A DNA stretch of 64,000 nucleotides. Origin: Azolla caroliniana. Lineage: Eukaryota > Plantae > Polypodiophyta. The notes under the pieces were generated by a model. It did not search any database. It was not told where the DNA came from and saw only the letters and a list, made by a program, of their open reading frames with translations. Shown in pieces: positions 2,129 to 59,833 of this stretch (the first letter of the stretch is position 1; the number at the start of each line of letters is the position of its first letter). The position numbers and the translations under genes were made by a program. The stretch is from NCBI GenBank assembly GCA_043228905.1, contig JBHGNT010000007.1, forward strand, positions 17,174,001 to 17,238,000. The letters are read 5' to 3'.

Positions 2129-2329
2129 AATTGAATTTGTATTCATTTGCATGCAACAAGAGGCAATATTGACTAGATCGATGAAATATGAAAAGAAGAA
2201 AGCATTTTGGGGTTTAATAACATATTCCACTAAGTGAAATAAGGTAGAAATGTTTCCATTACTTTCCTAAACCCTAATGTAGAACAGTTTCCATTACTTT
2301 CCTTTAGTCTAATGCATTATTGTTTTTTG

Positions 2330-3049
2330 GAAACATCATTTGAACCTTATATGTAATGGTGGTTTGATTTGAAACATATTTCATTATTATAGTAAGTTGG
2401 TTTTGCATTTATATTTTTGTTGCAAACTATATAATCTAAGGAAAAGGTGCGCTAGGAAAAAATGTTGTATTGCCAATATTTAGTGTGATTGATATGTAAC
2501 ACATATATTGATCGATAAGCTTCACATATTGAATCAATCATATATTAATCTCTTCCTTGTTGATGGGAGGAATACATTAATATACATCAAGAATCAATTG
2601 CTAGTGGCTAAAATCCCTAAACCAAATATTTGAAACCCTAAAAAAGAAAGAAGTTCAAGAAGAAGAAAATCTAAATGATATCAAAATTGACCAATAAGCA
2701 AAATAAACCCTCTTCTCAATAAGAGAGGAAAAGAGATTTGAACCTTGCACCTATTAACAAAAAAGCATAACTCTAACCACTAATCCATTAAATCTTAATA
2801 TTATTTTTATTAAGTACTTCATTTATTGTTCTAAAATAGTTGGGCGGTTGGGCAACCCACAACGGTCAGGATTGAGCGACCAAGGACTCAAAGTTGGGCG
2901 ACCTCTGACAGATTTTTTTTCGCGCGTTCTTTCTTATCCAAATCAGACGGTGCAGATCGAACACACCTTCCTCTAAGCAACCTACAGCGTCTAAGGCCGT
3001 GATTCCCTCGCCAGCCCTATTTATGATTTGGTATAAAATAAACACGAGT
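2330..3049 (-). mobile_element. MULE terminal arm (TIR plus subterminal region)
   Basis: 2330-2480 and 2615-3049 are reverse complements of 5563-5712 and 5127-5545. The terminus AATAAACACGAGT matches the family TIR end. Confidence 0.75.
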
Positions 3050-3077
3050 CATCCATATATATACATGTAGTTTTGTG

Positions 3078-5071
3078 GCTCGTGTATATTCTGCATCAAA
3101 TCATAAAGAGGGCTGGCGAGGGAATCATGGCCATAGACGGTGTAGGTCACTCAGCTGATAGCGCATACGATCTCCACCATCCGATTTGGATAAGAAAGAA
3201 CGTGCGAAAAAAAAAGTTGTCAGAGGTCGCCCAACCGCCAATCTATTTTAGAGCAATAAATGAAGTACTTAATTAAAAATGTATTATAATGGAATGGTTT
3301 AGTGGTTAGAGTCACTCTTGCCATGGAGAACTGCCTTTGGCTTTGCTTCTAGCCATGGAGAAATGCCTTTGGCTCTGCTTCTAGCTATGGAGAAGAAACA
3401 CGCATAGAAGAAACAGAGCAAAGAGAGGAAAACACGGAGAGAGAGGGAGAGAGAGAGAGACTAATTCTAATTTTGACATGTGGCTATGGCTATGCCTTTG
3501 GCTCTGTTTCTCGCTATAGAGAAGAAAGCATGGAGCGAGGGGGAGAGAGATTATTTGCTCTTTTTATTCTCCTCCTCCTTATTTTGACCCGTGGCTATGG
3601 CTATGCCTTTGGCTCTCCTTCTGGCCATGGAGAAATGCCTTTGGCTTTGCTTCTGGCTATGGAGAAGAAACAAAGCAAAGCTAGGAAAGAAAGTAGAGAG
3701 AGGGAGACACAGACAAATTGATTGATTCTGATTTTGACTTGTGGTTATGGTTATGCCTTTGGATCTTCTTCTAGCTATAGAGAAGAAAGCACGAAGCGAG
3801 GGGGAGAGAGACGAGTCGCTCTTTTTCTTCTTTTGTTGCTCCTAATTCTAACTTGTGGCTATGGTTGTGCCTTTGGCTCTGCTTTTGGCCATGGAGAAGT
3901 GCCTTTGCCTCTGATTCTGGCTATGGAGAAGAAACACGCAGAGAAGAGATAGAGCAAAGAGAGGAAAGAAGGTAGAGTAAGGGAGACAGAGACAGAGGTA
4001 GAGAAAGAGACTGATTCTGATTTTGACCTATGGTTATGGCTATGCCTTTGGCTCTTCTACTAGCTATAGAGAAGAAAGCACGGAGCGAGGGGGAGAGAGA
4101 CTAGTTGCTCTTTTTCTTCTTCTTCTTCTTCTACTCCTGATTCGAACTTGAGGTTATGGCTATGCCTTTGGCTCTGCGTCTGGCCATGGAGAAGTGCCTT
4201 TGACTCTGCTTCTGGCCATGGAGAAGTGCCTTTGGCTCTGGTTCTGGCTATGGAGAAGAAACATGCAGAGAAGAAACAAAGGAAAGAGAGGAAAGCACGT
4301 AGAAAATGGGAGACAAAGACAGAAACACAAAGAGATTGATTCTGATTTTGACCTGTGGCTATGGCTATGCCTATGCCTATGCCTTTGCCTTTGCTTCTTG
4401 CTATAGAGAAGAAATCATGGTGCGAGGGGGAGAGAGACTATTCGCTCTCTTCCTTCTTCTTGTGCTTCTGATTCTAACCTATGGCTATGGTTATGCCTTT
4501 GGCTCTACTTCTGGCCATGGAGAAGTGCCTTTGCCTCTGCTTCTGGCTATGGAGAAGAAACAGAGGAAAGAGAGAAAAGCACACAGAAAGAGGGAGACAA
4601 AGATAGAAACACAGAGATACTAATTCTAATTTTGACTTCTGGCTATGGCTATGCCTTTGCCTCTGCTTCTGGCTATAGAGAAGAAAGCACAGAGCGAGGG
4701 GGAGAGAGACTATTCGCTCTTTTTCTTCTTCTTCTGCTTCTGATTCTAATATGTGGCTAATGCTATGCTTCTGGCCATGGAGAAGTGCCTTTGGCTCTAC
4801 TTTTGGCTATGGAGAAGAAACATGCACAGAAGAAACAAAGCAAAGAGAGGAAAGCACGCAGAGAGAGGGAGATAGAGACACAGAGAGATTCAAAAATTCC
4901 CTCCCCCCAAATTTTACTTTTTTTAACATTTTAACAATTTTCTTTTTCTTTTTCTTTTCTTTTAATATATTATATCAAATAGTGATGAGGCTAGTTGAGC
5001 GACCTGCATCGTCTGTGGCCACGATTCCCTCACAAGTCCCCCTTATGAATTGTGTCATAATAGACACGTCA
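3078..5071. mobile_element. Non-autonomous MULE (element A) with 9-bp target-site duplication
   Basis: Left end GCTCGTGTATATT aligns with the reverse complement of the right end, TGACGTGTCTATT. AGTTTTGTG lies on both flanks (3069-3077, 5072-5080), and a 9-bp TSD is typical of Mutator. The right TIR is shortened by an internal deletion. Confidence 0.7.
3320..4890. repeat. Complex tandem repeat (~250-300-bp units, about 5-6 copies) inside MULE A
   Basis: Recurrent TGTGGCTATGGCTATGCCTTTGGCTCT, GGCCATGGAGAAGTGCCTTTG and GAGCGAGGGGGAGAGAGAC modules. Confidence 0.9.
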
Positions 5072-5086
5072 AGTTTTGTGTGATAA

Positions 5087-5126
5087 ATACATACATACAT
5101 ACATACATACATACATGCATGCATAT
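5087..5126. repeat. (TACA)n(TGCA)n microsatellite between two MULE termini
   Basis: ATACATACATACATACATACATACATGCATGCAT seen directly. Confidence 0.95.
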
Positions 5127-6876
5127 GCTCTTGTCTATTCTGCATCAAATCATAAAGAGGGTTGGCGAGGGAATCACGGCCACAGACGGTGCAGGTCGCT
5201 CACTTGATAGCTCTTGCGATCTGTACCGTCCGATTTGGATAAGAAAGAACGCACGAAAAAAAAAGTTGTTAGAGGTCGCCCAACTCTAAGTCCTTGGTTG
5301 CCCAACCGCCTATCTATTTTAGAACAATAAATGAAGTACTTAATTAAAAATTTATTATAATGTAATGGTTTAGTAGTTAGAGTCACTCTTTTTGGTTAAT
5401 AGGTGCAAGGTTCAAATCTCTTTTCCTCTTTTATTGAGAATAGGGTTTATTTTGCTTGCTTATTGGTCAATTTTGATATCATTTAGGTTTTCTTCTTTTT
5501 TAACTTCTTTCTTTTTTAGGGTTTTGACATTTGGTTTAGGAATTTCATACTTGCATGTATATTATTGGCAATACAACATTTCTTTCTAGTGCATATTTTC
5601 CTTAGATTATGTAGTTTGCAACAAAAATACAAATGCAAAACCAACTTACTATAATAATGAAATATGTTTCAAATCAAACCACCATTACATATAAGGTTCA
5701 AATGATGTTTCCTTGGTTGTTACCCATTGCTCCCGGCTCACTCACTACTCGTGGCTCCCTGTCACTTCTCGGTGATTGCACGACATCTGTTGTTTGCCAC
5801 TACACCACTCTGAAGTATGTATTTTGTCTTTTTTAGTCTCTTTCTCTCTATTTTCTCTATTTTCTCTATTTTTCTCTTTTATTGAATCTTTTTTCTTTGA
5901 AGATTGCTCATGAGAAGCATGTATGACAAAGTGGAATGCATTTTCTTTTATTCCCACCAAAATCTACAATAGGAGAAGGACTAAGCAATTAGAGTGATTA
6001 GTTACATCTGTTTGTCCAATATGGACTTATTGAAAGCCATAGAAAGCATGGAGGAGGTGAGATGGGTCTGATTGTTGATTGGATGAACTATTAATATGCA
6101 CAAGTGATGCTAGAGGAATTTTAGGATACTCTAGGAAGTATTTTTAAAATTTTAAAATTTTCATGCACTTTCTAAATTGGAGGGTAATATGGTCTATTGA
6201 ATCTTAATATTGGGGATATTTTGATTCTTAAAATTAGTGATCAGATTTTTTGTATTTTTTGTATTGTATGCTATAAGTCATCGAGTACAATAAGCACATC
6301 TTATTGTCACACATCACACATCATACAAGTACATATTGTATTGTATGAGTTAACAAAACTTTGATAGAGAACAAATATCTTGTAGATGGTATGCGCATTT
6401 GGCCATATGAGCTTAGCAAAGAGGCTTATGACACTAATGCATGAGTAGTTGGGAACAATATGTATATGAGCATGCATGCAATGAAATTTATATGCAATAT
6501 CCAAAATTCTTAGGTTATGCATGTAAATTGAAGAAGGCATTGTATGTATTACCAACAACGAACATCAAGTGCTTAATTACAGGTTGCATGGATTTGAAAT
6601 ATCGAAGTTTGTGTATATGTTAGTTAGTACAATGCAATCATTCTCATTGTGAATTGTGCAGACATTTATATCCTTGAATGTTCAAGAGACATCAAACATT
6701 TGTTGGAGGGATATATTTGTCACGGACATGACAATAGTCATGTCAAGATTTGAACTCTTGACCACTTATATAATAGCCAAGTGTTATGCTCTAACCAATA
6801 CATCCAAATACATGTTTATGTTATATACATCTCAGTAATTATTAGTAGTTATCTATTTCAAGTTCTAGGATTTCTT

Positions 6877-6965
6877 AGAAAGTTCTAGAATGAGAAGGTT
6901 CTAGAAGAATCTAGAATATTCTCTTGAATATTCTAATGCATGTACTTCGACTCACAATATAAATA
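6877..6965 (+). promoter_or_regulatory. Heat-shock-element array and TATA box in LTR U3
   Basis: aGAAagTTCtaGAAt (6877-6891) and aGAAggTTCtaGAAgaaTCtaGAAtaTTC (6893-6921) match alternating nGAAn/nTTCn. TATAAATA at 6958-6965. Repeated in the 3' LTR (~8506-8594). Confidence 0.7.
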
Positions 6966-7179
6966 CTTGTAACCTCTGTGGTCGCATTGAAGGGATTCAA
7001 CGCCAGTCATAGACATATCAATCTAGTATTCCCATTTCGCCTATCTTCTCTCCTTAATCTTCATCTCTATCTTAATGTTCTTGTCTCATTCCCCATCTTA
7101 AGTTCCACGTCTCATCGCTCCATCATAGCCTCGTCATCCATGCTCTGTCATGGTCCAAGGTTGGTGTGTCCGTGATAGT

Positions 7180-7191
7180 TTGAATCCCTTC
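7180..7191 (+). other. Putative self-priming primer-binding site
   Basis: TTGAATCCCTTC, 2 nt after the 5' LTR, is the exact reverse complement of GAAGGGATTCAA at 6989-7000, about 31 nt downstream of the TATA start. Confidence 0.75.
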
Positions 7192-7784
7192 CAACTAGAA
7201 GCATCACCCATCTTCGTCATTGCCCTTGCTTCTAGAGTTACCATCGTCACTGTCCTTGCTTCTAGAGTTTACCATCATCAATATCCCTTTGTTTCCTATC
7301 GTCCTCGCCATTTCTATCTCCTAGTTCCTTCTCATCATTGTCATTGTCTTTTAGTTTCTCCGCATTATCGTTTCTATTTTTTAGTTTCTTCTCATCCTCC
7401 ACATATATATATATCCGTGTTTCTTATCATCATCATCTCTATCTTTGCACTTTTGTCATTGTCATCCTTCTACCTTTGTTTCCTACCATTTTCATCTCTA
7501 TGTGTTTCTTATCATCATCATCCCTATTTATGCGTTTCTTATCATCTTCGTCCCTATCACTATGTTTTCTATCATCCTCTATATCCCTATCTTCTTTTTA
7601 TTCTCAACATCTCGATATCTATTTTTCTTATCCTCTTTATCTATTTCTCTGTTTCTAGTCATTGCTTCTAAAGACGCTTTCTCAATCATTATCTTCATTG
7701 CTTCATCTTCGACATCATCATCTTTAGCACCTCTTAGTGTCGTCATCAACACTACTTTGCCTAGCCTTCATCGATGACATCAAG

Positions 7785-8255
7785 TGTTCTAGTTCCCGGT
7801 GAGGACCGCACAAGGTCGCTCATGCCCGTTAGTGTTCGTGTCTTCGGTGAGGAGAGCAACACATGGCTGTCCACTCTCGTTCGTGTTCCAGTCCCTGGTG
7901 AGGACCGCACAAGGTTGCTCACGTCCGTTGGTGTTCCAGTTCCCGGTGAGGACCGCATGGTCGCTCACACCCATTCGTATTCCCGATGACAGTCTTCGGT
8001 GAAGGACTGCACAAGGTCGCTAATGCCCGTTGGTGTTCTTGTCTCCGGTGAGGAGAGCCGCACATGGTCGTCCACTCTCGTTCGTGTTCCAGTACCTGGT
8101 GAGGACCGCACAAGGTTGCTCATGCCCGTTCGTGTCCCAATCTCCGGTGAGGACCGTACATGGTCGCTCACGCCCGTTGGTGTTCTAGTTCCCGATGAGG
8201 ATCGCACATGGTCACTCACGTCCATTGATGTTCCAGTCTCCGGTGAGGACTGCTC
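7785..8255. repeat. Tandem array of ~48/51-bp units (about 10 copies) upstream of the PPT
   Basis: Recurrent CCGGTGAGGACCGCACAWGGTCGCTCAYGCCCGTTSGTGTTCYAGT units. Confidence 0.9.
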
Positions 8256-9446
8256 ATCGTCACTCAGTACTCAACCTACTTCCATTTTCTCTTTCAGCTC
8301 ACCCCTACACCACATTTCCGAAAAGGCGTCGTAAAGGGGAGGATAATTTCACGGACATGACAATAGTCATGTCAAGATTTGAACTCTTGACCACTTATAT
8401 AATAGCCAAGTGTTATGCTCTAACCAATACATCCAAATACATGTTTATGTTATATACATCTCAGTAATTATTAGTAGTTATCTATTTCAAGTTCTAGGAT
8501 TTCTTAGAAAGTTCTAGAATGAGAAGGTTCTAGAGGAATCTAGAATATTCTCTTGAATATTCTAATGCATGTACTTCGACTCACAATATAAATACTTGTA
8601 ACCTCTGTGGTCGCATTGAAGGGATTCAATGCCAGTCATGGACATATCAATCTAGTATTCCCGTTTCGCCTATCTTCTCTCCTTAATCTTCATCTCTATC
8701 TTAATGTTCTTGTCTCATTCCCCATCTTAAGTTCCTCGTCTCATCGCTCCATCATAGCCTCATCATCCATGCTCTATCATAGTCCAGGGTTGGTGTGTTC
8801 GTGATAATATTTAACCTTTGGCTTGAAGAGAAAGAGAGAAGGATAGTATCATAATTCATTGAAGTAGACACATATTGCACAATGCTTAATATGAGGAGTC
8901 ACGGTACGGTATGACAAACATTTTTTTGTATTTTTTGGGCTTTAAGAAATATATGATGATTAAGTATTCGATTTGCATGATTTTTTTTGTATGATTTCAT
9001 TATCTTTGTCAGGTAGTTATGTTTATTTGTGTATCTTTGTGTATTTTCTATAGTAATAAAATGTATAATAATGAAGCATCATATAGAGCTTTTCATTATT
9101 AAAACTTGTACGTCAAATGACATATTAGTTTTTGCACTCTCATGTCATATGACATACATCTTTAAAAAATGTCTGTCAAAAAACATAAAGACTAACCTGT
9201 CAAATTCAGGCCCTGGAAACAATTCTACCTTATTTCATGCTTTTTAAGAGGGTTGGGAGACCTATTTGATAGGTTGGGTGACCATATTAAACACAATTTT
9301 TGGAATAACACAATGTCACCAAAACTTGACTATTACAAGAACAATATCCAACCGATGATCCGTTTACATAGCTAGATAAATTAATCCACACATATTACAA
9401 CAATTGCATGAGAGATTGTGCATGACTAGTAATATAGAATACAACT

Positions 9447-11016: not shown

Positions 11017-14000
11017 ATGGATGGTAGTGTTTTCATGAATATGGATGAGTCTCCAAATTCTTCAAAGGATGAGTGCATGGTTGAGTCAATATCAAGCCCA
11101 AGAGGGGATGGTAAAAGAAAACGATGTATTGGAGATAATAGTAATGACATGTCTTATGTTGATGCAATGCAACAAGATGACATTGAGAAAGATGATAGTC
11201 ATTGGGAGCATTTAAGATGCATGGAAAATATATTAATGGAAGATGGCATAAGGGAGAATGTGAAAGTTGTTGAGGAGTTTGTTGACGATGAACTAGCTAA
11301 GGTAGAAATAGACAATAAGGAGTTTTTGGGCTCAATTGCTAATTTTTGTGATAAAGGGGTCATATTGTTTTTCACAGGAAAGATACCTTTCCTTTGGAGG
11401 GTCAAACAATGGTTATGTGGGATTTTACAAGCTGATTGTGTTCACTGTTGGGAATATGTCCCTCTAGTGGGAGGATGATCCGACTGTTCGGAAAGCTGAC
11501 AATCGAAGAGTCGGAAAACAGGAGTCGAGTTGATGAGGCCGATAGGCCGAGGCCGAAACCGGAATCGTGTAAATAGCCAACTCATGACACTATATTTGTA
11601 AATAGTCTAAGTGTGTGCCACATGAGGGCTACGTATGTAAATAACCAAAAATTTGCATAAGTATATATGCAACTAGGGCAAACATGTTGTTAGTGTGATG
11701 AAGAGAAAAACAAAGATTAGAGAGTGTGTGCAGAAGTTGTAAAACGCAAGAGAGCGTGACAGAGAGAAGTGTGAGCAACGCCATAGCTGTGTGTGTAACA
11801 GCAAACGCGAAGAGCCCTATGCGGCTGATACACTCGACAGAGTGTTGTATTCCTCTCAGTGTTGTATATCCACTTTGTATAGTGAAGTTATTTTTCACCC
11901 GTGGTTTTCCCCGTTTTAGGGTTTCCACGTAAATCTCTGTGCACCATTGTTCATCTTATCTTTTCTTGGCATATTTCTGTGATTCGTATTTCAGTGCGTA
12001 GTTCGTTTATTGTGATCTATTTTCTGCAATGATTTCTCAACAAACTGGTATCAGAGCTTGAGGTGCAAGCATGGCAGGAGGTGTTAGCGGTTTCCCAGGT
12101 ATGATAGTTCTGAACTCACAGAACTATGTAAACTAGAAGATAAAGATGGAAGACCTTCTCATAGTTAAAGACCTGTACGAGCCAGTCGACAGAGCAGAAA
12201 TACCCAGGGGGGTATTGGAGTCAGACTGGAAGCTTCTGAATAGGAAGGTGGTGGCCACAATCCGACAATGTGTCGATGTAAGTGTTCTTTAGCATGTGGC
12301 AAACGACACGAATGCCCACGAGATGTGGCAGAAACTGTCGGGTCTGTACGAGAGGAAGAACGCGCTAAACAGAACCTCACTAATGAGAAAAATCGTACGA
12401 CTGAAATACAAAGATGGTGAGAGCATTGTCAAACAAATCAACACATTTATGGGGTATGTAAATCAACTTGCTGCAACCACATTTCCCCTAGATGATGCAA
12501 TGTAGGCCATCCTACTGATGTGTACACTGCCGGAAAGCTGGGAGAACCTGGTGGTTACTCTCAGCACCTCCTGTCAAGAAGAGAACTTGTCTTTACAAAC
12601 GGTGAAGACAAGAATCCTAAACGAGGAGGCAAGGAGGAAAGACAAAGGAGTCTTGTCCTAAACAAAGTCGAATCTGACTCAACATATGGATAGAGGAAGA
12701 AACCGGCGAAGAAGAAGTCTGTAGAGAACGGACAAATCCCACGCCAGATCGAAGTCCAGAGGTAAACAATTGTGCTTTTATTGCAGAAAACCTGGACACT
12801 TCCAGAAGGATTGCCGACACATGAAGACAAGTGTCGGAAATAATGTCGAACCCCGGAAAATTCCGGATGAAAAGAACACTTCGGCCATTGCTACGATCAA
12901 TGAGGAACTCTTGTTCATCTGTGAACAGACAAGTGCAAACCTTGCAAGCGAAGAGTGCACTTGGGTGATTGATTCCGGCGCATCCTTCCATATTACTCCG
13001 TCGAGAGAGTATTTCTCGACTTACATAGCCGGGGATCATGGCTATGTAAAGATGGGTGATAGTGGAGAGTGCAAGATAACCGGAGTCGGAAGTGTGTGCT
13101 TAATGACGTCGACAGGGTGTCAACTGACGTTGAAGGATGTCCGACACGTCCTCGATATCAGATTGAATCTGATATCGAATGGAAGGCTTGACGACGAAGG
13201 CTACAGTGGTAGTTTTCGGAATGGCAAGTGGAAGTTCTGCCATGGAAATCTCATAGTGGCCCGAGCACAGAAAGAAGGCACATTGTACATGATGCATGCC
13301 CGACTGTCCAAATCGGAAGTAAATGTGGTAGTCGACTCGACAAGGGAGATATGGCATAAGAGGCTAGGCCACATGAGTGAGAAGGGAATGCACCTGTTAG
13401 CCGACCAGAAACTTCTACCAAAAGTCAAGGGAGTACACCTAGAGAAGTGTGTCGACTGCTTAGCCGGAAAGCAGAACAAGACGACATTCCACACGAGACC
13501 ACCGAGGAGAAGAGAAGTTGCACTAGAACTAGTGCAAACGGATGTGTGCTATGTGGATGCTCCATCGCATCAAGGAGGATAGTACTTTGTAACGTTTATT
13601 GACAACTACAGTCGGAAAACATGGGCCTTCGTACTGAAGTCGAAGGATCAAGTATTGTCAGTTTTCAAGGAGTTCCAGGCAAGAATTGAAAGAGAGTCGG
13701 GCTGGAAACTGAAGGTTGTCCGAACCGACAATGGTGGCGAATACAAAGGGCAGTTCAAAGAATACTGCAAGTGCCAAGGGATTCGGATCAAATACACAAT
13801 GCCAAAGACCCCAGAGTTGAACGGGCTTGCAGAGAGGATGAATCGAACGATCATGGAGAGAGTGAGGAGCATGCTCTCTCATGCGAAACTACCGAAATCC
13901 TATTGGGCTGACGCGATGTACACAGTTTTTTATCTGATCAACAAGTCTTCCTCGGTACCTCTAAAGGGTGATGTCCCACAGAGGGTGTGGACAAGTAAGG

Positions 14001-17000
14001 ATGTCTCCTACCAACACCTGAGGGTGTTCGGATGTTTGGCGTATATGCATGTACCAAAGGATCAAAGGTCAAAGCTCGACAACAAGTCGAAAGCATGCAT
14101 ATTCATGGGATACTTGGAAGATGAGTTCAGATACAGGTTGTGGGACTTAGTCAACAAGAAGGTAGTGAGAAGTCGGGATGTAGTTTTTCTAGAAGACAAG
14201 ACAATTGAAGATTGGAAGCAACAGAAGTCGGAACTGACTCCCCAGTCAACCTCGACTACCATCGACTTAAGGCCAAGTGAGTCGTCATCGACAACTGTAA
14301 GGAGACAGCTGGCCGACAGAGCCGAATCCGAGTCAGTCGACTCGGAAAGACTGACAGACTATGAGTCAGAGTCGGCAGAGCTGCTAAAATCAATTGAGGA
14401 ATATGAGTTGGAGTTGTCCAACCTGGAGATGCCGATTGATGAGCGGAATCCCGAGCAAAGAGAAGAATTGGCAAAGACATCTGAAATAGAGCCAACAATG
14501 AGTCGAAGAAGATACCCACTCAAAGAAAGGAAGGCACTGACTACATATGCCAGTCAATACATCCTCTTGACTGATGACGGTGAACCAGAGTGCTATGAAG
14601 AAGCCATTGCCGACGAGAGCAAAGAAAAATGGTTGAACATGATGCAAGAGGAGATGGAATCCTTGCACACAAATTACACCTACGACCTAGTAGAGCTGCC
14701 GAAAGGTAAGAGAACACTCAGGAATAAGTGGGTCTACAAGGTGAAGACTGGAGAAGTCGACAACGAGCCCAGGTGTAAAGCCCGCATAGTGGTGAAGGGT
14801 TTCCAATAGAAGAAGGGCGTCGACTTTAACGAAATATTCGCACCAGTGGTGAAGATGACATCCATTCGAACTGTTCTGAGCATAGCGGCCAGTTTGGACC
14901 TAGAGATTGAACAGTTGGATGTCAAAAACGCATTTCTGCACGGGGAGTTAGACGAAGAGATCTACATGCATCAACCCGAAGGCTTTGAGGAGAAAGGGAA
15001 AGAGAATCCGGTGTGTCGACTGAGGAAAAGCTTGTACGATCTGAAACAAGCTCCACGCCATAGTACAAGAAATTCAAGCCCTTCATGATGGAACATCGGT
15101 TCTAGAAAACACAGGCCGATCACTATGTATTCGTCAAAAGGTATGACGAAGGAGATTTCTTGATTCTCTTGCTATATGTTGATGTTATGTTGATAGTCGG
15201 CCAAGATGCAAGGAAGATTGGAAGCTTGAAGAAAGCTCTCGGCAAATCATTTGTCATGAAAGACCTTGGACCGGCAAAGCAAATCCTAGGAATGCATATA
15301 ACTCGAGACATAGCTTAGAAGGCACTATGGTTGTCACAACAAAAGTATGTGACGAAGATCCTAGAGAGATTCAACATGTCAAACGCAAAGCCGGTCGGCT
15401 CCGTGTTGCCGACAAATTGCAGATTGAATGTGAAGCAGTGACCGAAGGGACAGAAGGAAAAGGCTGAGATGAAGAAGGTACCATATGCCTCAGCCATCTG
15501 CAGTCTAATGTATGTTATGGTCTATACAAGACCGGACATAGCATTTGTTGTGGGAGTAGTAAGCCGATATATGAGTAATCCAGGGAGAGAACACTGGGCA
15601 GCGGTGAAATGGATACTCAGGTACTTAAAGGGCATCTCGGGGGTGTGCCTAAGGTATGGTGTCGAAAAACCTGTGTCGGAAAGTTTTACAGATTCAAAAA
15701 TGTCAGGAGATGTTGACTCAAGCCGATCCACGTCAAGGTACGTGATGACCTATGTAGGGGGAGTAATGTCGTGGCAGTCACGACTGCAGAAGTCTGTAGC
15801 CTTGTCGACTACAGAGGCAGAGTATATGGCAACGGTAGAAGCCAGAAAAGAGTTGATCTAGATGAGAAATTTTCTCACCGAACTAGGCATGAAGCAAAAG
15901 GAGTTCTTGCTTCACTGTGACAGCCAAAGCGCCATACACCTAGCCAAGAACGCGACATATCACTCCCGGACCAAGCACATACAGAGAAGGAATCACTAGT
16001 TACATGAGAGAGTCAAAGAAGGAGAATTTGCTCTTGAGAAGATCCATACTGACGACAATGGATCTGACATGCTGACGAAGAACCTACCTATGCACAGACT
16101 CAGAGTCTGTCGACAAAATACAAGACTGACGGATTTCCTCCCACAGGAGTGAAGGGGGAGTTTGTTGGGAATATGTCCCTCTAGTAGGAGGATGATCCAA
16201 CTGTTCGGAAAGCCGATAGTCGAAGAGTCAGAAAACAGGAGCCGAGTTGATGAGGCCGAAATAGGAATCGTGTAAATAGCCAACTCAGGAGACTATATTT
16301 GTAAATAGTCTAAGTGTGCGCCACATGAGGTCTACATATGTAAATAACCAAAAAGTTGCGTAAGTATATATGCAACTAGGGCAAACATGTTGTTAGTGTG
16401 ATGAAGAGAAAAACAAAGATTAGAGAGTGTGTGCAGAAGTTGTAAAACGCAAGAGAGTGTGACAGAGAGAAGTGTGAGCCGTGCCATAGTTGTGTGTGTA
16501 ACAGCAGACGTGAAGAGCCCTGTGCAGCTGATACACTCGACAAAGTGTTGTATACCTCTCGGTGTTGTATATCCACTTTGTATAGTGAAGTTTCTGTTCA
16601 CCCATGGTTTTCCCTATTTTAGGGTTTCCACGTAAATCTCTGTGCACCATTGTTCATCTTGTCTTTTCTTGGCATATTTTTGTGATTCATATTTCAGCAC
16701 GTAGTTCGTTTATTGTGATCTATTTTCCGCAACAATTTCTTAACATTCAGGATGTTTATGTTGATCCTTGTGGATTTTATGAGGTTGTTTTGGTATCACA
16801 AGAGTATAAAGAGAAATTACTCAATAAATTGCCAGTTTTTTATGAGAAATGTTTGGTTCATATTGTTCCGTGGAGACCACTAGTGGAATACCAAGATATA
16901 TTAAAGCAAGAGTGTCCCGTATGGGTTGAGGTAGAGTGCACATATTCAGTGGTTTGGCCAATATTACGGTCAGCGATGGAAAAGTTGGGAAAGATCTTGG

Positions 17001-17515
17001 TGCCTCCTAGTGCTAATGCTCAAAATCGATATCGGATGTGTATTCTTTGGAATACTGCTATAAAGAGGCCAAGTTGTTTACAAATTGCATGCTCTGGTAT
17101 GCCGCCTATGTATTTTCAGCTTAAATGGGGTACATTTGCAAGACACTGTTTCCACTATGGTGTGTTGGGGCATTTTATGTCTAAATGTCCTCAAAAAAGA
17201 AATAATGTAGTGGAAGTGGTACATGAAGAGCCTACAACTCATGATCAGATTCAAGCTTTGACAATTTCAAAGCAAACAAAGGAACCACAAATTGTGAATG
17301 AGAAGGATGGAAAGACTCTAGAGGATGAAAGACAATGGTCAATAGTTTCTGGAAAGATGAAGAAGTCTAATAAAAATGTTGGGCATAATGTATCTATGGA
17401 GAAGGTCACACCGACACATCCCATGCGGAATAAACCATGGGCTCGTCAAGAGGACTATCCAAAGAAATTATCTTTTGATAATAAAGGTAATTTGTATGTT
17501 CCTTGGAATAAATAG
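11017..17515 (+). pseudogene. LINE ORF1 (DUF4283-like region plus zinc knuckle), split 11017-11445 / 16751-17515
   Basis: Removing the Copia and one TSD restores the frame ...GILQADCVQDVYVDPCGFYEVV...VHIVPWRP...ECPVWVE. Degenerate knuckle CFHYGVLGHFMSKC. Confidence 0.8.
11446..16745 (+). mobile_element. Full-length but decayed Ty1/Copia LTR retrotransposon (Tnt1/Tork-like)
   Basis: LTRs 11446-12042 and 16163-16745 (TG...CA). PBS TGGTATCAGAGC at 12046-12057. PPT GAAGGGGGAG at 16151-16160. TSD TTCAC/TTCAG. gag-pol 12071-16152 has CFYCRKPGHFQKDC, DSGAS, RTDNGGEY and LLYVDVML, with many stops. Confidence 0.95.
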
Positions 17516-17673
17516 AAATCGGTGCCTCGTTCACATGAGGAGCCATAGGGGTCTTGAGTTTTGCATTCCCATAGTAATTCATATGCAATCTTAGGGGATT
17601 TATTTCAAGATATGGCAAAAACATTAGCAGTGATGGAGAAGGAGATTTCTCGAATAAAAGGAAAAAATAAAGT

Positions 17674-19946
17674 GTGAAGATCACCACATGGAATGTGAGG
17701 GGATTGTGTTCTAGATTTAGAATGCATGAGGTTTAGAGGATTGTATTAAATGAGCAATGGGATGTTTTATGTGCAATAGAGCATAAAGATCATCGTAATG
17801 CTGGTTTAATTAGTTATTCTGAGGGTTATACATTATGTTATGTTGGCAAGGTTCATGGGGATTATTCTGGGATTGTCATGTTTATAAGAGATAAATTTCA
17901 CCCAAAAGTAATTGTTTCAAATGAATTTGGAAGATTTATTGTGGTAGAGGTATGTTATGAAGGGCAAGCTCTTTGGTTAGTTGGTGTGTATGCATCAAAT
18001 GTTTCACAAGAACGAAAGTTGTTATGGAGATCTCTAAACTCAGTGCTTGATAATGGTAGACCGAGTTTATTGATGGGAGATTTTAATGTTTGTTGTGAGA
18101 CAGATCAATCAACATCTATCCACTCTATTATTGATGGACTAGAGGCTCAAGAATGGGGAGATTTTGAGACTGAAGTCATGTTAAGGGATGTATGGAAATG
18201 GATCAAGGGAGATGAACCTAGTTATACCTTTCAATTAGCTCAATATCAGTATACTTGGAGTAGGTTGGATCGAATGTATGTAATGCATACTGAAGGTTTT
18301 TTACCAGAGATTTTGGATATTTCAGTGTCTTATGGGTCAATTATATCATATCATTTCCCATTAATTTTTTAGTTCAATCACCACTCAATTAGAGGTTTTC
18401 ATGAGTTTTTAGGAAAACCACCGTTGATTTTTAATTCATCATTTTTGGATCATGAGGTCTTCCATGCCTATATGTGTCAATTGATTGATGCATTTGTCTA
18501 TCGTGTTCAATTTGATGGGTATGAAGTGTGGGAAGTATTTGTTGCAAATGTTGAGAGGTTAACTAGATATTATGGAATTCACCATATTTTTAAAAGGAGA
18601 AAGAAATTAAGTCTCCTAGTTAATTTGCTTGATAAATGCAACTCATTGTTAACTTATTGGCCAACGGATGTAGAGTTGATGGGATATCAAGAGGTATTAA
18701 TTTCTGTGATGCATGACCTAACGGCAAAAAATTATCAACATGCTAGACTACATCGTCTAAGACAAGAAGTGGATGATGCTAATTGTCAATCACATAAGTT
18801 TTTTCATGACCTTCATGTATAACATGCACGATATAATGTGGTAAGGTTAGAGGAAAATGGTATCATGTGTTCTGATCCTCAAGAAATTGTGAAGAAATGC
18901 ATAGAATATTATACACAATTGTTGGATGTACAAGTGTGTATCGATGATAATGTTAAAAAGGATAGAGATGTATTTTTTAACGGAGTGAAAAATCATGTAT
19001 CGCATGATGTGGCACAATCATTAGATGCTAATATATTCAGAGGATGAGGTGGAACATGTCATGTCACATCTTGCTAACCTTCAATTTAATCGGATGGCTA
19101 GATTGGGTTTGGTAACAGTTAAGGATGCTATGTTGGTTTCACAAAGAAGATTAATGGTTTTTCGAACAATAAGATCAACATTTCGTATTCCAAAAGGTTA
19201 TAACTTTATTTGGGATAAGTTGCAACAAATATTATCTTCACATGAGCCAATTCCTGATTTAGATGGGCGATCTCAAGAGCTTGATTGGAGGTTTGTTGGA
19301 AATAAGAGATTGACTATGATCTCAATGAATGTTTCTTATCACAAGTTGATTGACAAACATAAGTGGTTGGAAGAAAGGGTTATAAAGATATGGGGTTTTC
19401 ATAAGCCCATTACTTGGTGGTTTCATGTGATCAAGGCAGGTTGGTGTTCTCGATTGATGCTACGAGCCAAGGTATTTATTTGGAGAGTTATGGTTGGAGA
19501 TTTACCATTAGGGGATGCATTAAAAAAAAGAAACTTTACTGAAGGATTGTGTTTCTTCTGTTCGGTGGAATTGGAACATAGTAGGCATCAATTTATTTCA
19601 TGTCCGATGGCAAGGATGGTTTGGAGGTGTATCAGTTTAGTGTGGATGTCTCTAACAGGAGTAAGTCTATTTTCCTTCAGTTGGGTTTTTGCACATGGAG
19701 AACAATGAACCGATGCCTCATTTTCAAATTATTCTTGAGTTCTTGAGGTATTGGGGGCTATGGTTCAATTGGAATATGCGGAATGCCTTCATTTTTTATT
19801 CGCAAGTTGGGATGAGAAAATATGTTCTAAAGTTAAAAGGACTTCTTTTGTGGCAATTGACAGTGCTAGAGAAGTCACGAAATCTCAACCAAAAAGAGAG
19901 AGAACTCTACAAGGTCACATATCATCATACTCACAAATTGAATTAG
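17674..19946 (+). pseudogene. LINE ORF2 remnant: AP endonuclease plus zf-RVT, RT core deleted
   Basis: KITTWNVRGL, LLMGDFN, SRLDRMY and ISYHFP endonuclease motifs. KVFIWR...CFFC...EHSRHQFISC zf-RVT. The sequence jumps at ~19078 (SHLAN|LQF), where the RT domain should start. Confidence 0.85.
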
Positions 19947-20013: not shown

Positions 20014-23000
20014 TGTTGAGAATCGATGCTTCGATTCACCTTCTTCGCCCGGCCACAACCGAGTAATCGCGGATCAATGCAGCAGAAAATGGAAACCAAA
20101 AGAGAGAAACACACGAGTACACAGGGATTAACGTGGAAAACCCTAGATGGGAAAAACCACGGGAGTACAAGACTCCAAACAACACTATACAAGAGAAGTA
20201 TACAATGACGAGCTCCAAGGCGACGACCTTGAGCTCGCTGTCCTCGCCACAGGCGGCGGAAATACACAGAGGCGTCGTCCTCTTCCTCTCTCGCGCTCTA
20301 TCTCTCACTCTGTCTCACGGCTGCTCCCTCTTCACTCCTCTTGAGTGGAAAAACAGAAAAATGATAAGCAACAACAAAACAGATTGCCCTAAGTCATATT
20401 TATACATATATGACTTTGGGGCTATTTACAACTATAGCCTCAGGGGCCCATAGCAGACATATTCACGGATATGTCCCTGCATCCGGATCGCTCTCCGGGT
20501 ACATTCGTCATCCGGCACCGAAGCCGGGGTCTTCGTCATCCGGATCCGAAACCGGAACCGGGCTTGTCGGCATTCATCTCCGACATCCGACCATCCCATC
20601 CGAAGGGACCGTAATCCCAACAAACTCCCCCTTCACTTCGGCATGGGATGTCTTTCCAATCCGATCCTCTTCCGGCATGCTTCCAGCTTGTCGGGTGTGA
20701 GCACCTTGGTCAGCATATCCGATCCGTTCTCGTCCGTGTGGATCTTTGTCAGCACGAACTCCTTGTCTTCTATCCTTTCCCGGATCCAGTGATATCTTCG
20801 CTGGATGTGCTTCGTCCGGGAGTGATAGGCCGCGTTCTTCGCAAGGTGGATTGCACTCTGACTGTCGCAGTAGAGTCGGTACTCCTCCTGCCGGATACCG
20901 AGCTCCCTAATGAAGTTCTTCATCCATATTATTTCCTTGCCGGCTTCAACAGCTGCCATGTACTCCGCCTCCGTGGTTGACAACGCAACCGTCTTCTGCA
21001 GCCTCGACTGCCACGAAACAGCTCCCCCTGCATACGTCATCACATACCCTGATGTGGACCGGCTGGTATCTGCATCAGCCGACATATCCGAATCGGTGAA
21101 GCCGTCGAGTTCGGGCTTACCGGAGCCGAATCGGAGGCACACGTTTGCCGTGCCCCTCAGGTATCGGAGTATCCACTTGGCCGCGTTCCAATGCTCTTTG
21201 CCGGGATTGCTCATGTACCGGCTCACCACTCCGACTGCATATCCTATGTCCGGTCTCGTACACACCATGGCGTACATCAAGCTCCCGACGGCTGAGGCAT
21301 ACGGCACTTTCATCATATCCTCCTTTTCAGCCTTTGTCTTGGGACTTTGCTTGCTGGACAGCTTGCAGTTTGCCGGGAGGGTCGATCCGACCGGTCTTGC
21401 TTCCGACATGTTGAACCGGTGAAGCACCTTCGTCACGTACTTCTCCTGTGACAGCCACAATTGCTTCTTGCTCCGGTCCCGGATGATGTGCATCCCTAGT
21501 ATTTGTCTCGCCGGACCCAGGTCCTTCATTGAGAAGGTTCGGTGAAGAGCCTTCTTCAGCATCCGGATCTTGACCTGGTCCCGTCCGACGATCAACATGT
21601 CGTCCACGTACAGGAGGAGTACTAGAAAGTCTCCTCCTTCGAACTTCTTCACAAACATGCAGTGGTCGGACTGCGTTTTGAGGTACCCTTCGTCGGTCAT
21701 GAAGGAGTCGAACTTCCGGTACCATTGCCGGGGAGCCTGCTTCAGTCCGTAAAGGCTCTTCTTCAACCGGCATACCAGGTGCTCCTTCCCTTTCTTCTCG
21801 AATCCTTCCGGTTGCTGCATGTAGATCTCTTCATCGAGGTCACCGTGAAGGAATGCCGTCTTCACGTCCATCTGTTCTACCTCGAGGTCCATGCTTGCCG
21901 CTATGCTCAGCACCGTCCGGATGGAGGTCATCTTCACTACCGGGGCAAATATCTCGTCGAAGTCGACGCCCTTCTTCTGCTGAAACCCCTTCACCACGAT
22001 CCTGGCTTTGTATCTCGGGGGGTTTCCGGCATCTCCCGGTTTCAGCTTGAACACCCACTTGTTTCGAAGTGCCCGCTTTCCTTTCGGCAACTCCACAAGT
22101 TCATATGTGTGGTTCTCATGCAGGGAATCCATTTCGTCCTGCATGGCACTCAACCACCTGCGGCTCTGGGTGTCATGTTTTGCTTCTTCAAAGCTCTCCG
22201 GCTCCCCCTCGTCGGTTAGCAGCACGTGCTCTGGTTCCGGAAATCTCCGGGGGGCCCTTCTCTCTCTTAGAGGATATCTCCGTTCCGGAGCTTCGGTAAC
22301 CGGTTCTTCCGATTCTTCTTCATCCGAATCCATTTCGGGATCGAGGCCGGTTCCGGTATCGTTTTCATCTTCTTCGGCCGGTTCTGTTTCTTCACCGTCT
22401 TCGGCCGGATCCTCGAGTGCTAACCGGTCCCTTGCCGGTCGGGACTGCTCCTTGTAGAGTTGATCCTCACCGGTCGACTTGGAGCTATTTACCTTCTTCT
22501 CCGACTCCCAGTCGGCGAGTGTCTTGTCCTCCATGAAGATGATGTCTCGACTCCTGAATATCTTCTTGTCGACCGGGTCCCATACTCGGTAGCCGAACTC
22601 GTCATCGCCGTAACCGAGGAATATGCATGGCCGGGTCTTTGGATCTAGCTTTCCTCTCCGGTCCTTTGCCACATGCACGTATGCGAGACACCCGAACACC
22701 TTCAGATGCCGGTAGGATACTTCCATACCGGTCCACACTTTCTGCGGCGTGTCTCCGTCCAAAGGTACTGAGGGTGATCTGTTTATCACGTATGTCGCCG
22801 TCGACATTGCCTCAGCCCAAAAGCCCTTGGGTAATTTCGCATGCGCCAGCATACTCCGGACCCTCTCCATTATGGTCCGGTTCATCCTTTCGGCCAGCCC
22901 GTTCAGTTCCGGCGTCTTCGGCACAGTAAACTCGAGTCGGATTCCCTTCGAGCGACAGTACTCCTGGAACTGCCCCCGGTATTCCCCTCCGTTATCCGCT

Positions 23001-25344: not shown

Positions 25345-25409
25345 TATACTTTGTAGTAAGTTAGTCATGGTGGTGTTTTTTTCTTTCGTAATGAAAGCCA
25401 TTATTTATG

Positions 25410-25442
<33 letters not shown>

Positions 25443-26005
25443 CTATTCACTCTTCTTCTTCTGATTTTGATTCTGATTTTGACCTGTGGCTATGGCTATG
25501 CCTTTGGCTCTACTTCTAGCTATAGAGAAGAAAGCACGGAGCGAGGGGGAGAGAGACTATTCACTCTTTTTCTTCTTTTGTTGCTTCTGATTCTGACCTA
25601 TGCCTATGCCTATGCCTTTGGCTCTGCTTCTAGTTATGGAGAAGAAACACACGAAGAAGAAACAGAGCAAAGAGAGGAAAGCACGCAAAGAGAGGGAAAC
25701 AGAGACAGAGACAAAGAGAGATTAAAAAATTCCCTCCCCCCACATTTTACTTTTTTTAACATTTTAACAATTTTCTTTTTCTTTTTCGTTTCTTGTAATG
25801 ATATTATATGAAATAGTGATGAGGCTAGTTGGGCGACTACTGCCAAGGTTGGGCGACTTCTGATAGTTTTTTTTGGTGCGCGTTCTTTCTTATCCAAATC
25901 CGATGGTGCAGATCGCACACGCCTTCCTCTGAGCGACCTGCACTGTCTATGGCCGAGATTCCCTTGCCAACCCTCTTTATGATTTGTGTCATAATAGACA
26001 CGTCG
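25443..26005. mobile_element. MULE right end: one tandem-repeat unit plus TIR
   Basis: Direct paralog of 4620-5071, with a complete TIR at 25845-26005, followed by the same GTTTTGTGTGA.AAA(TACA)n flank. Confidence 0.8.
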
Positions 26006-26445
26006 TGTTTTGTGTGACAAATACATACATACATACATACATGATACATGCATGCATGCATGCATGCATGCATCGTGGTGTCTAACTACCACCAAATATT
26101 TATGAGGGCAAGTGAGGGAATTGCGGAGAAGGACGGTGCAAGTCGCTAGATGAGGGTGCGTGCGATCTGCACCGTCCAATCTGGATGAAGAAAAAGCGCG
26201 CCATCAAAAGTCCAATTTTTGGGGAGCCCGACTCTATGAATGGGATTGAGTATAAAAACCCATACCTGTCATTTTTGCCCATTTACAAACAGGTAGCTAG
26301 AGGTTTAGGGTTTAGGGTTTAGGAGCGAGGCACACCACCTGTTGTCCAGAGGTATGTATCATATTTCTTGTCTATTTATGAATTGCTTAATATTTGTGTG
26401 TTCAATTTGTGAAAGCTCAGAAATCTCATCCTATTTACTGAACAC

Positions 26446-30786: not shown

Positions 30787-31147
30787 CATTAATAGTTAAT
30801 TGCCCAACTACGTGTAATGATGGCGTTTCAACGATCATACTAACAACTATAGCAAATTGATTCATCAAATTCAGTAGCATGAACTAAGAGGTAGACTCAT
30901 TCACTAAGGATTGAACTCATTCCCTTAACAGTCTATTAATCACTCGCACTCATTTCATTCACTCTCATTCTCGATCATTCACTAATAGCCCTAAACATTC
31001 TCGAACTAAATCATTCAAGAAGAGTTGAAATAATCCACTCCATTCATGTGAATTATTTGAATTCATTCACTTCATTCATTTGCATAATCTCTCACATTCA
31101 TTTAATTGACCTCAATCACTGGCATTCTCGATCATATTGTATTTGCT

Positions 31148-33812: not shown

Positions 33813-33870
33813 CCTGTGTGTGTGTGAGAAGAAGAGTTTCCTGAACCTTTGGAAGTGGAATTGGATAGCT

Positions 33871-50486: not shown

Positions 50487-50737
50487 TTGCCCTAAGTCAT
50501 ATTTATACTTATATGAACTTAGGGCTATTTACAAATATAGCCTCAATAGGCTTACTTAAAACATATTTACAAATATGTCTTCTCTTCCGGTTCTCACCAA
50601 GTCCATCCGATCCGGTTTCCGAATCTCTTCTGGTTCTCACCGGGTTCATCTGATCCGGTTTCTGGATCTCTTCCAGTTCTCACCAGGTCCTCTTCATTCA
50701 TAACCGGATCCCATCCGAAGGGACCGATTACCCAACA
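50487..50737 (-). mobile_element. Partial LTR related to the intact Copia family
   Basis: Shares TTGCCCTAAGTCATATTTATAC...GGGCTATTTACAA and the terminal CCCATCCGAAGGGACCG...CCCAACA with 20380-20622. Confidence 0.8.
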
Positions 50738-50779
50738 CCTCCTTGATCCCAATCAAGGGATTCAATGCTAGTCACAAGA

Positions 50780-57825: not shown

Positions 57826-57832
57826 AGCCAAG

Positions 57833-57959
57833 TTACAGATAAGCTCTGCTCAGCGGTAGCAAAGGGGGCGAGGATGATGTGATAGCAGAATCCATGGAAG
57901 AATTCTCTTCTTCTTCAGTATCTGTGTCTGCGTCTGCGTCTGCGTCTGTGTTTGGCCAT
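57833..57959 (-). promoter_or_regulatory. Two candidate upstream ORFs of the F-box gene
   Basis: 57959-57915 encodes MAKHRRRRRRRHRY*; 57895-57833 encodes MDSAITSSSPPLLPLSRAYL*, ending 7 nt before the main ATG. The transcription start is unknown. Confidence 0.4.

Positions 57960-59796: not shown

Positions 59797-59833
<37 letters not shown>

What the first reader, a model, noticed from the sequence alone, without database searches (positions are those of the whole stretch)
6718..8806. Non-coding LTR element that appears to prime its own reverse transcription (Tf1-type)
Seen: complete LTRs, TSD and PPT, but no tRNA-type PBS. The PBS position holds TTGAATCCCTTC (7180-7191), a perfect 12-nt complement of GAAGGGATTCAA (6989-7000), which starts about 31 nt after the TATA box, where transcription should begin. 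Known: S. pombe Tf1 anneals the first 11 nt of its mRNA to the PBS, and RNase H cleavage releases the primer; self-priming is proposed for related chromoviruses such as the Tcn1 clade of non-seed plants. Inference: this is a miniature parasite of a self-priming chromovirus. Described plant TRIMs mostly use tRNA-Met, so a self-priming non-autonomous family may be undescribed.
Basis: partly seen in the sequence, partly recalled or inferred. Interest (0 to 1): 0.8.

Follow-up and report, generated by a model that had tools for sequence, protein, structure and literature searches.

The report
Plant mini-retrotransposon that primes itself
A 2-kb protein-free jumping gene, probably from a fern, has no tRNA-type docking site; that site instead matches the predicted first 11 bases of the element's own RNA, and a sister form changes four letters on both sides while keeping the match, so the family likely starts DNA copying with its own RNA, as yeast Tf1 does.

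Summary
Observation confirmed. The element (6718-8806) has 460-bp LTRs (11 mismatches), an ATATT target duplication, a purine tract, no recognisable protein and no TGG-type primer site. 7180-7191 is the exact complement of 6989-7000.

Relatives refine this. The family pairing is 11 nt (6990-7000), starting 32 nt after the TATA box in 21 of 24 copies. 17 of 19 related units pair 11/11. A sister subfamily has four compensatory changes in primer and primer site, and both changed halves occur in four sequencing runs under four organism labels. A second duplex flanks the site; Tf1's third duplex is not supported.

Self-priming is likely (about 0.85) but untested: no RNA start, no host tRNA set, no genome. 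No helper was found. A Tcn1-type chromovirus is the best guess (about 0.55), from the termini and a fern-like host.

The mechanism is known (Tf1) and predicted in plants. Ten literature searches found no self-priming non-autonomous plant family. This scan noted similar elements before in other genomes (a fungus, a ray). New variant of a known kind; interest 0.45.

The parts
6713..6717 (.). 5-bp target-site duplication, left copy (ATATT)
   Evidence: empty-site joint 6712/8807 in four runs
6718..7177 (+). 5' LTR, 460 bp, TG...TA
6958..6965 (+). TATA box; its first T lies 32 nt before the predicted primer
   Evidence: sequence; spacing 32 in 21 of 24 family copies
6966..6989 (+). End of U3. In relatives it carries a partial inverted copy of the primer (hairpin across the predicted start); degenerate in this copy
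   Evidence: this copy p=0.33 against shuffles; p<0.05 in 5 of 14 distinct contexts
6990..7000 (+). Predicted 11-nt self-primer (predicted 5' end of the RNA)
   Evidence: start site inferred, not mapped
7006..7021 (+). R arm of the second duplex, pairs with the U5 end
   Evidence: 92.9% of cells paired; 0 of 300 shuffles
7161..7176 (+). U5 arm of the second duplex, 5' flank of the primer site
7180..7190 (+). Primer-binding site, 2 nt after the LTR, complementary to 6990-7000 (7191 also pairs with 6989 in this copy)
7195..7235 (+). 9-bp hairpin just 3' of the primer site, conserved in relatives
   Evidence: 95.2% of cells paired, no two-sided change in the alignment
7214..7632 (+). Pyrimidine-rich degenerate ~30-nt repeats, non-coding
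   Evidence: no Pfam family; no Atlas hit at 0.9 or more
7784..8261 (+). Array of ~48-nt repeats (about 9.5 copies)
8333..8343 (+). Polypurine tract, followed by TAA and the 3' LTR
   Evidence: same junction in relatives
8347..8806 (+). 3' LTR, 460 bp, TT...TA; holds the second primer copy at 8619-8629
8807..8811 (.). Target-site duplication, right copy (ATATT)
50737..50774 (+). Isolated 38-nt fragment of a family LTR (U3 hairpin, primer, start of R), wedged between a copia LTR end and a copia RT remnant
   Evidence: (nhmmer E 9e-07)

Best explanation
This is one copy of an abundant, non-coding LTR retrotransposon family of a plant that is probably a fern, whose primer site matches its own LTR rather than a tRNA end and which likely primes reverse transcription with the predicted first 11 bases of its own RNA, using proteins likely borrowed from a self-priming Ty3/gypsy chromovirus (Tcn1 type). 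Shown: element anatomy, 11-nt complementarity, its conservation, four compensatory changes in a sister subfamily, fixed TATA spacing. Predicted by folding: transcription from about 6990 gives an RNA whose 5' end pairs with 7180-7190, extended by a 16-bp R/U5 duplex. Inferred from Tf1: the helper's RT/RNase H cuts after base 11 and extends the freed 3'-OH; plus strand starts at the purine tract; the helper's integrase makes the 5-bp duplication. If the primer is copied back into the primer site, as in other LTR elements, a changed 5' end would carry the site with it, which explains the paired changes. Odds: self-priming about 0.85; Tcn1-type helper about 0.55.
For: (1) 12-nt match 2 nt after the LTR; 1 of 20,000 shuffles; meets the published self-primer criterion of 10 nt or more within 0-5 nt (PMC6317226). 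(2) Of 53 metagenome loci chosen for the primer-site string alone, 15 of 17 family loci with 250 nt or more upstream carry the 11-nt complement, against 0 of 24 non-family loci. 17 of 19 related units with both halves pair 11/11. (3) L005 has primer AAGGTGAACAA and site TTGTTCACCTT in one LTR unit: four two-sided changes. Matched duplexes are -14.4 and -14.1 kcal/mol, cross pairs -4.0 and -3.9. Both variant halves are covered in 4 of 4 runs (organisms A, C, D, E) with no substitution at 5% or more listed in either 11-mer. (4) TATA-to-primer spacing is 32 in 21 of 24 copies, including the variant, whose spacer sequence differs; the base before the primer is C in 18 of 20. (5) The leader folds into primer duplex plus R/U5 duplex, z -3.95 and -4.99. 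(6) Termini TGTCACG / CGTGACA (relatives) fit the Sushi-chromovirus att motifs TGTYANR / CNTNACA (and those of rGmr1), not the Sire or Retrofit copia motifs (PMC3601003 Table 3). (7) A window F-box protein is closest to fern proteins (43-45%, next best 30%); one paper states that ferns hold Tcn1 and that TAR is confined to angiosperms (PMC13477047 passage).
Against: No RNA data: no RNA run holding the element was listed, so the start site is inferred. All four compensatory pairs come from one sequence of 14 in the alignment, one evolutionary event. No contig bridges the variant primer and variant site; cis linkage rests on L005 alone, a short-read assembly that may be a mosaic, and L042 joins a standard primer to the variant site (7 of 11 pairs). 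L045 has two primer changes that are not compensated and L028 has the site without a primer upstream. The third duplex of the Tf1 'pretzel' is not supported (58 of 300 shuffles as good). In whole-RNA folds of this copy the 3' LTR primer copy takes the site when 80 nt of tail are included (0.98) and the 5' copy wins with 30 nt (0.89). Host tRNAs could not be searched. No helper element was found. A PCR survey found Tcn1 in Selaginella and mosses but not in ferns or horsetails, and saw no self-priming signal in SM-Tcn1 (PMC2864245).
Confidence: 0.75

Rival explanations
1. Self-priming, but the helper is a Ty1/copia element (TAR-like or another self-priming copia).
For: 89% of 203 TAR elements are predicted to self-prime (PMC6317226 supplement). 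The window is rich in copia elements and holds no gypsy domain or motif that I detected. A family LTR fragment abuts a copia RT remnant at 50774.
Against: Termini fit Sushi-type rather than Sire or Retrofit motifs. The window's copias start TGTTGGG, end CAACA and carry a TGG-type site. TAR is reported as angiosperm-only while the host looks seed-free. TAR termini themselves were not available to compare.
Confidence: 0.1
2. Self-priming, but the helper belongs to another, poorly described chromovirus lineage of seed-free plants (Galahad, Mordred or unnamed), which would be a further self-priming group.
For: A PCR survey found Galahad, Mordred and unnamed lineages, and no Tcn1, in ferns and horsetails (PMC2864245). 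From memory, not from a call, Galadriel-type LTRs also begin TGTCAC.
Against: Selaginella Galahad elements have tRNA-Met sites (PMC3350952), and self-priming was reported for no plant chromovirus clade other than Tcn1 (PMC6317226).
Confidence: 0.2
3. The pairing is structural only (it closes the leader or joins the RNA's two ends), and the real primer is a host RNA such as a tRNA fragment.
For: Equilibrium folding can pair the site with the 3' LTR copy instead. The R arm resembles the LTR's own left terminus, so part of the fold could be a by-product of inverted termini. Host tRNAs were not searchable.
Against: The match sits exactly at the primer-site position and exactly at the predicted start. 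Two different 11-mers, each matched by its own R copy, would need two host RNAs and a parallel change in R. No TGG follows the LTR.
Confidence: 0.1
4. Chance complementarity, or an assembly artefact.
For: Repeat-rich DNA gives 12-nt or longer complements at 22 of 9,072 positions; the related contigs are short-read mosaics.
Against: 1 of 20,000 shuffles; 15 of 17 against 0 of 24; both forms of both halves in independent runs; empty site seen.
Confidence: 0.02

Closest known systems
Tf1/Tf2 of Schizosaccharomyces pombe and the Tf1/sushi group (Tj1, Tosmo1-3, Tcry1, sushi-ichi); passages of bioRxiv 10.1101/2022.12.06.519325 and PMC4600332; the Levin papers themselves were not read
   Same: Primer site just after the 5' LTR is complementary to the predicted 5' end of the RNA; a second duplex joins the 5' flank of the site to LTR sequence downstream of the primer; purine tract before the 3' LTR.
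   Different: No coding capacity; the third duplex of the 'pretzel' is not supported and the 3' flank folds into its own hairpin; plant host; no experimental test; relatives carry an inverted primer copy at the end of U3.
Plant Tcn1 chromoviruses (REXdb; PMC6317226 passages, sections 10 and 15, supplement rows; PMC2864245 passages and section 6)
   Same: Self-priming predicted for 83% of 1,500 elements; 5-bp TSD; seed-free hosts; SM-Tcn1 LTRs are 440 bp.
   Different: Tcn1 elements are 5.5-9.4 kb and encode Gag-Pol with a chromodomain. No sequence link between this family and any Tcn1 element could be tested.
Ty1/copia TAR lineage (Houba, Osr-1; PMC6317226)
   Same: Self-priming predicted for 89% of 203 elements by the same LTR-complement criterion; 5-bp TSD.
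   Different: Coding; reported as angiosperm-only (PMC13477047 passage); the termini here fit chromovirus rather than the two copia motifs compared.
Plant TRIMs and other non-autonomous LTR elements (PMC13570524 and PMC4717578, passages; definition in PMC6934838, passages)
   Same: LTRs, purine tract, TSD, non-coding interior, high copy number, subfamilies with exchanged modules.
   Different: 2,089 bp with 460-bp LTRs exceeds the classic size. The six primer-site motifs of 115 sugar-beet families are all tRNA-derived, though that search started from tRNA motifs; 'self-prim' occurs 0 times in the main text of PMC13570524 and PMC4717578.

Membership tests
Self-priming LTR elements (Tf1-type mechanism) | Site starting 0-5 nt after the 5' LTR complementary to 10 nt or more of that LTR | tested here: met
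   12 nt at offset 2; 11 nt in 17 of 19 related units
Self-priming LTR elements (Tf1-type mechanism) | No TGG-type site for a mature tRNA 3' end | tested here: met
   no TGG in the first 9 nt after the LTR
Self-priming LTR elements (Tf1-type mechanism) | Site matches no host tRNA half or other host RNA | not testable with these tools
   no genome held; no Rfam match in the element
Self-priming LTR elements (Tf1-type mechanism) | The complementary stretch is the 5' end of the RNA | tested here: inconclusive
   TATA spacing 32 in 21 of 24 copies and C before the first A in 18 of 20; no RNA data
Self-priming LTR elements (Tf1-type mechanism) | Primer and site change together | tested here: met
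   four two-sided changes in L005, both halves in 4 of 4 runs; one event only; L042 discordant
Tf1/sushi group | Three-duplex 'pretzel' leader | tested here: not met
   central and 5'-flank duplexes present (0 of 300 shuffles); 3'-flank duplex not above chance (58 of 300)
Tf1/sushi group | RNase H cleavage after the primer | not testable with these tools
   needs experiment
Tcn1 / chromovirus | Gag-Pol in gypsy order with a chromodomain, RT in the Tcn1 clade | tested here: not met
   element encodes none; 75 ORFs of related loci gave only copia-type remnants and one GH3 hit above the curated cut-offs; it can only be a dependent, and the helper was not found
Tcn1 / chromovirus | Chromovirus-type LTR termini | tested here: inconclusive
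   TGTCACG / CGTGACA fits the Sushi motifs and also rGmr1; no Tcn1 LTR set to compare; this copy ends TA
TRIM, classic definition | Under 1 kb with terminal repeats of 100-250 bp and a tRNA-complementary site | tested here: not met
   2,089 bp, 460-bp LTRs, no tRNA-type site (definition)
Non-autonomous LTR retrotransposon (TRIM in the broad sense of PMC13570524) | LTRs, TSD, purine tract, non-coding interior, multiple copies | tested here: met
Ty1/copia TAR | TAR-type termini and leader; angiosperm host | tested here: inconclusive
   host looks seed-free; TAR LTR sequences not available

The most novel reading that the evidence does not exclude
The family parasitises a self-priming chromovirus lineage of ferns that is neither Tcn1 nor TAR, and the inverted primer copy at the end of U3, which changes together with primer and site, is a working device that masks the 3' LTR copy of the primer so that only the RNA's 5' end can prime. 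The two primer types would show that the helper's cut depends on RNA shape, not sequence.
Probability: 0.15. Interest if true: 0.7.

Novelty: new variant of a known kind. Interest (0 to 1): 0.45.

Why it matters
In the papers I read, self-priming in plants is only a prediction from complementarity. A natural pair of subfamilies with four compensatory changes is comparative evidence that the pairing is in use, and gives ready-made matched and mismatched constructs for a test. If confirmed, a non-coding RNA can be cut and primed in trans by a helper's RT, with no tRNA, which would put it out of reach of tRNA-fragment interference at the primer site (inference). Annotation pipelines that require a tRNA-derived site would miss such families, and this one is abundant in several related plants. 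The mechanism itself is not new.

Tried and rejected
No whole genome is held, so no genome-wide LTR or tRNA search. Helper in the window: the two full copia elements have TGG-type sites and 7- and 4-nt self-complements; a scan with recalled gypsy RT/IN/chromodomain motifs found nothing credible in the window or 24 family loci. Collection scans for a helper: viral contigs 0 hits, 25 and 3 hits; genome contigs 0 and 17 hits. All 45 of these loci share only the search string (no profile hit at E<0.01; three are phage ribonucleotide-reductase genes). 29 of the 53 metagenome loci were non-family chance hits and were used only as a control. 75 ORFs from family loci gave copia-type gag or protease remnants and one GH3 hit, nothing gypsy. 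An internal ORF had no Atlas hit at 0.9 or more. No RNA holder listed. The third pretzel duplex was rejected. The copia RT and SDR searches did not place the host (SDR about 50% to angiosperms). Contig depths were not used as copy numbers. One paper on Tcn1 in land plants (10.1111/nph.17568) is not held; I recall it reporting Tcn1 in ferns but did not see it. The per-element primer-site table of PMC6317226 did not surface among the five supplement files held; it would allow a direct comparison with Tcn1 and TAR primers.
Full report
1. Observation. The element spans 6718-8806. Its LTRs (6718-7177, 8347-8806) are 460 bp with 11 mismatches (2.4%), flanked by ATATT on both sides. Contigs of four sequencing runs join 6712 to 8807, so the empty site exists. 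The 3' LTR begins TT and both LTRs end TA; most relatives end CA. A purine tract lies at 8333-8343. The interior is a pyrimidine-rich 30-nt repeat region and a 48-nt array, with no Pfam family in three ORFs and no Rfam match. After the 5' LTR come GT and a 12-mer that is the exact complement of 6989-7000. One of 20,000 shuffled LTRs reached 12 nt; 22 of 9,072 sliding positions in the window did. There is no TGG after the LTR, whereas the window's two full copia elements have one and score 7 and 4 nt in the self-complement test.

2. Host and abundance. No genome is held. A window F-box/LRR protein is closest to Ceratopteris and Adiantum proteins (43-45%; next best 30%). An SDR exon is about 50% identical to angiosperm proteins. 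A seed-free plant, probably a fern, is an inference from one gene; earlier notes on this genome say fern or moss. Sixteen runs from 6 studies hold parts of the element, under five organism labels and two metagenome labels. In the four runs laid, 2,821-7,643 contigs per run lie on it, interior included. It is a high-copy family.

3. Relatives. A metagenome scan for the LTR end plus primer-site string gave 53 loci, of which 24 are family members by BLAST. They are short-read contigs, partly redundant and probably mosaic; the 14 aligned leaders are 71-94% identical. Because the scan fixed the site, only the R side is an unbiased test. Of the loci with 250 nt or more upstream, 15 of 17 family loci carry the 11-nt complement, against 0 of 24 non-family loci. 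Of 27 units with a site, 20 have a recognisable primer upstream, and 18 of these (17 of 19 without the window) pair 11/11. The base before the primer is C in 18 of 20, so the family pairing is 11 nt. The first T of the TATA box lies 32 nt before the primer in 21 of 24 copies (one 35, one truncated, one deleted). That spacing and a CA at the boundary fit a plant Pol II start (own knowledge); the start was not mapped.

4. Compensatory subfamily. A second unit on contig L005, not selected by the scan, has primer AAGGTGAACAA and site TTGTTCACCTT in one LTR. Four adjacent pairs change on both sides (0 of 500 shuffles reach 6 two-sided pairs over the whole structure, but this is one sequence and one event). 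Matched duplexes are about -14 kcal/mol and cross pairs about -4. The variant keeps the 32-nt spacing with a different spacer and a largely different U3. Laid on four runs labelled organisms A, C, D and E, both variant halves are covered in all four, no substitution at 5% or more is listed in either 11-mer, and standard-type contigs appear as loose ends or small indels at exactly these places. No listed contig bridges both halves. Against: L042 joins a standard primer to the variant site, L045 has two uncompensated primer changes, and L028 has the site with no primer upstream.

5. RNA structure. The leader folds into the 11-bp primer duplex, a 16-bp duplex between R (7006-7021) and the U5 end (7161-7176), and a 9-bp hairpin 3' of the site (z -3.95 and -4.99). 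Cells paired across 14 sequences are 99.4%, 92.9% and 95.2%. Tf1 needs three duplexes (bioRxiv 10.1101/2022.12.06.519325, passages). Here the 5'-flank duplex is real (0 of 300 shuffles) and the 3'-flank duplex is not (58 of 300). The end of U3 carries a partial inverted copy of the primer: a 12-bp hairpin in the variant, shorter in others, p<0.05 in 5 of 14 distinct contexts and 0.33 in this copy. It could mask the 3' LTR copy of the primer; that is inference. In whole-RNA folds the 5' primer holds the site in L040 (0.85) and L026 (0.94); in this copy the result depends on the assumed 3' end (0.00 or 0.89).

6. Mechanism. Most likely the RNA starts at 6990, its first 11 bases pair with 7180-7190, and a helper RT/RNase H cuts after base 11 and extends the freed end, as shown for Tf1 (known from passages; original papers not read). 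The purine tract primes the plus strand and the helper's integrase makes the 5-bp duplication. Anatomy, conservation and compensation are shown; start site, cleavage and helper are inferred.

7. Helper. None was found (see Tried and rejected). In plants, self-priming is predicted for Tcn1 (83% of 1,500) and for copia TAR (89% of 203), 12% of all elements surveyed (PMC6317226: passages, sections 10 and 15, supplement rows). The termini fit the Sushi-chromovirus motifs and not the two copia motifs listed (PMC3601003, passages with Table 3). One paper places Tcn1 in ferns and TAR in angiosperms only (PMC13477047, one passage); an older PCR survey found no Tcn1 in ferns (PMC2864245, passages and section 6). 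I put Tcn1 at about 0.55, another chromovirus lineage at 0.2 and copia at 0.1.

8. Novelty. Ten full-text searches listed no self-priming non-autonomous plant family. Two plant TRIM surveys have no occurrence of 'self-prim' in the main text (PMC13570524, PMC4717578; passages). A bivalve TRIM paper mentions self-priming only as context for a missing site (PMC6934838, passages). Also read as passages: PMC3350952, PMC8282616, PMC9033089. Subscription journals and Repbase were not searchable, and supplements were searched only for PMC6317226. This scan has noted non-coding self-priming elements in other genomes, none matching this sequence. Verdict: a real feature and a new variant of a known kind. 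The compensatory subfamily and the U3 hairpin are what lift it above routine. Interest 0.45.

Noticed in passing
window 20014-25344 (minus strand): Intact Ty1/copia element with 609-bp LTRs that are 100% identical, GTATA duplication, one 1,374-aa open frame and a TGG-type primer site; inserted very recently. Its RT resembles Tnt1-like proteins (62-74% identity).
   Followed up: partly
window 11446-16745: Older related copia element (LTRs 90% identical, stop codons, TTCAC/TTCAG flanks), also with a TGG-type site.
   Followed up: partly
window 50737-50774: 38-nt piece of the family LTR holding exactly the U3 hairpin and primer, between an inverted copia LTR end and a copia RT remnant; the rest of that LTR is not in the window. 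Could be a deletion junction or a template-switch product.
   Followed up: partly
window 6718-6770 and L005 1113-1135: The standard LTR has about 23 extra bases at its left end; the variant LTR starts at what is an internal TGTCAAG in the standard LTR, and has a different sequence before its purine tract.
   Followed up: partly
L003, L005, L009, L029, L040, L042, L048: Contigs show LTR-interior-LTR-interior chains with a shared LTR: tandem arrays of the family or collapsed short-read assemblies.
   Followed up: no
L013, L015, L028, L036, L042: Longer internal variants carry an extra non-repetitive segment with no Pfam match; possible remnant of the helper.
   Followed up: partly
window 58517-59802 and 60410-61693: 1.29-kb direct repeat at 96% identity around about 600 bp that includes an LTR-like end and a TGG-type site; not classified.
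   Followed up: no
window 31106-33993 and 380-1333: MULE transposase frame (681 aa) with an 85% identical partial copy near the window start.
   Followed up: no
window 56596-57849 (minus strand): Single open frame for an F-box/LRR protein, closest to fern proteins.
   Followed up: partly
window 2329-5712 and 25395-26212: A repeat family with 32-nt and about 327-nt internal units and ATAC microsatellites, in two places, with inverted segments.
   Followed up: no
window 16589-19708: LINE-like remnant (endonuclease and zf-RVT hits) between the two copia elements.
   Followed up: no
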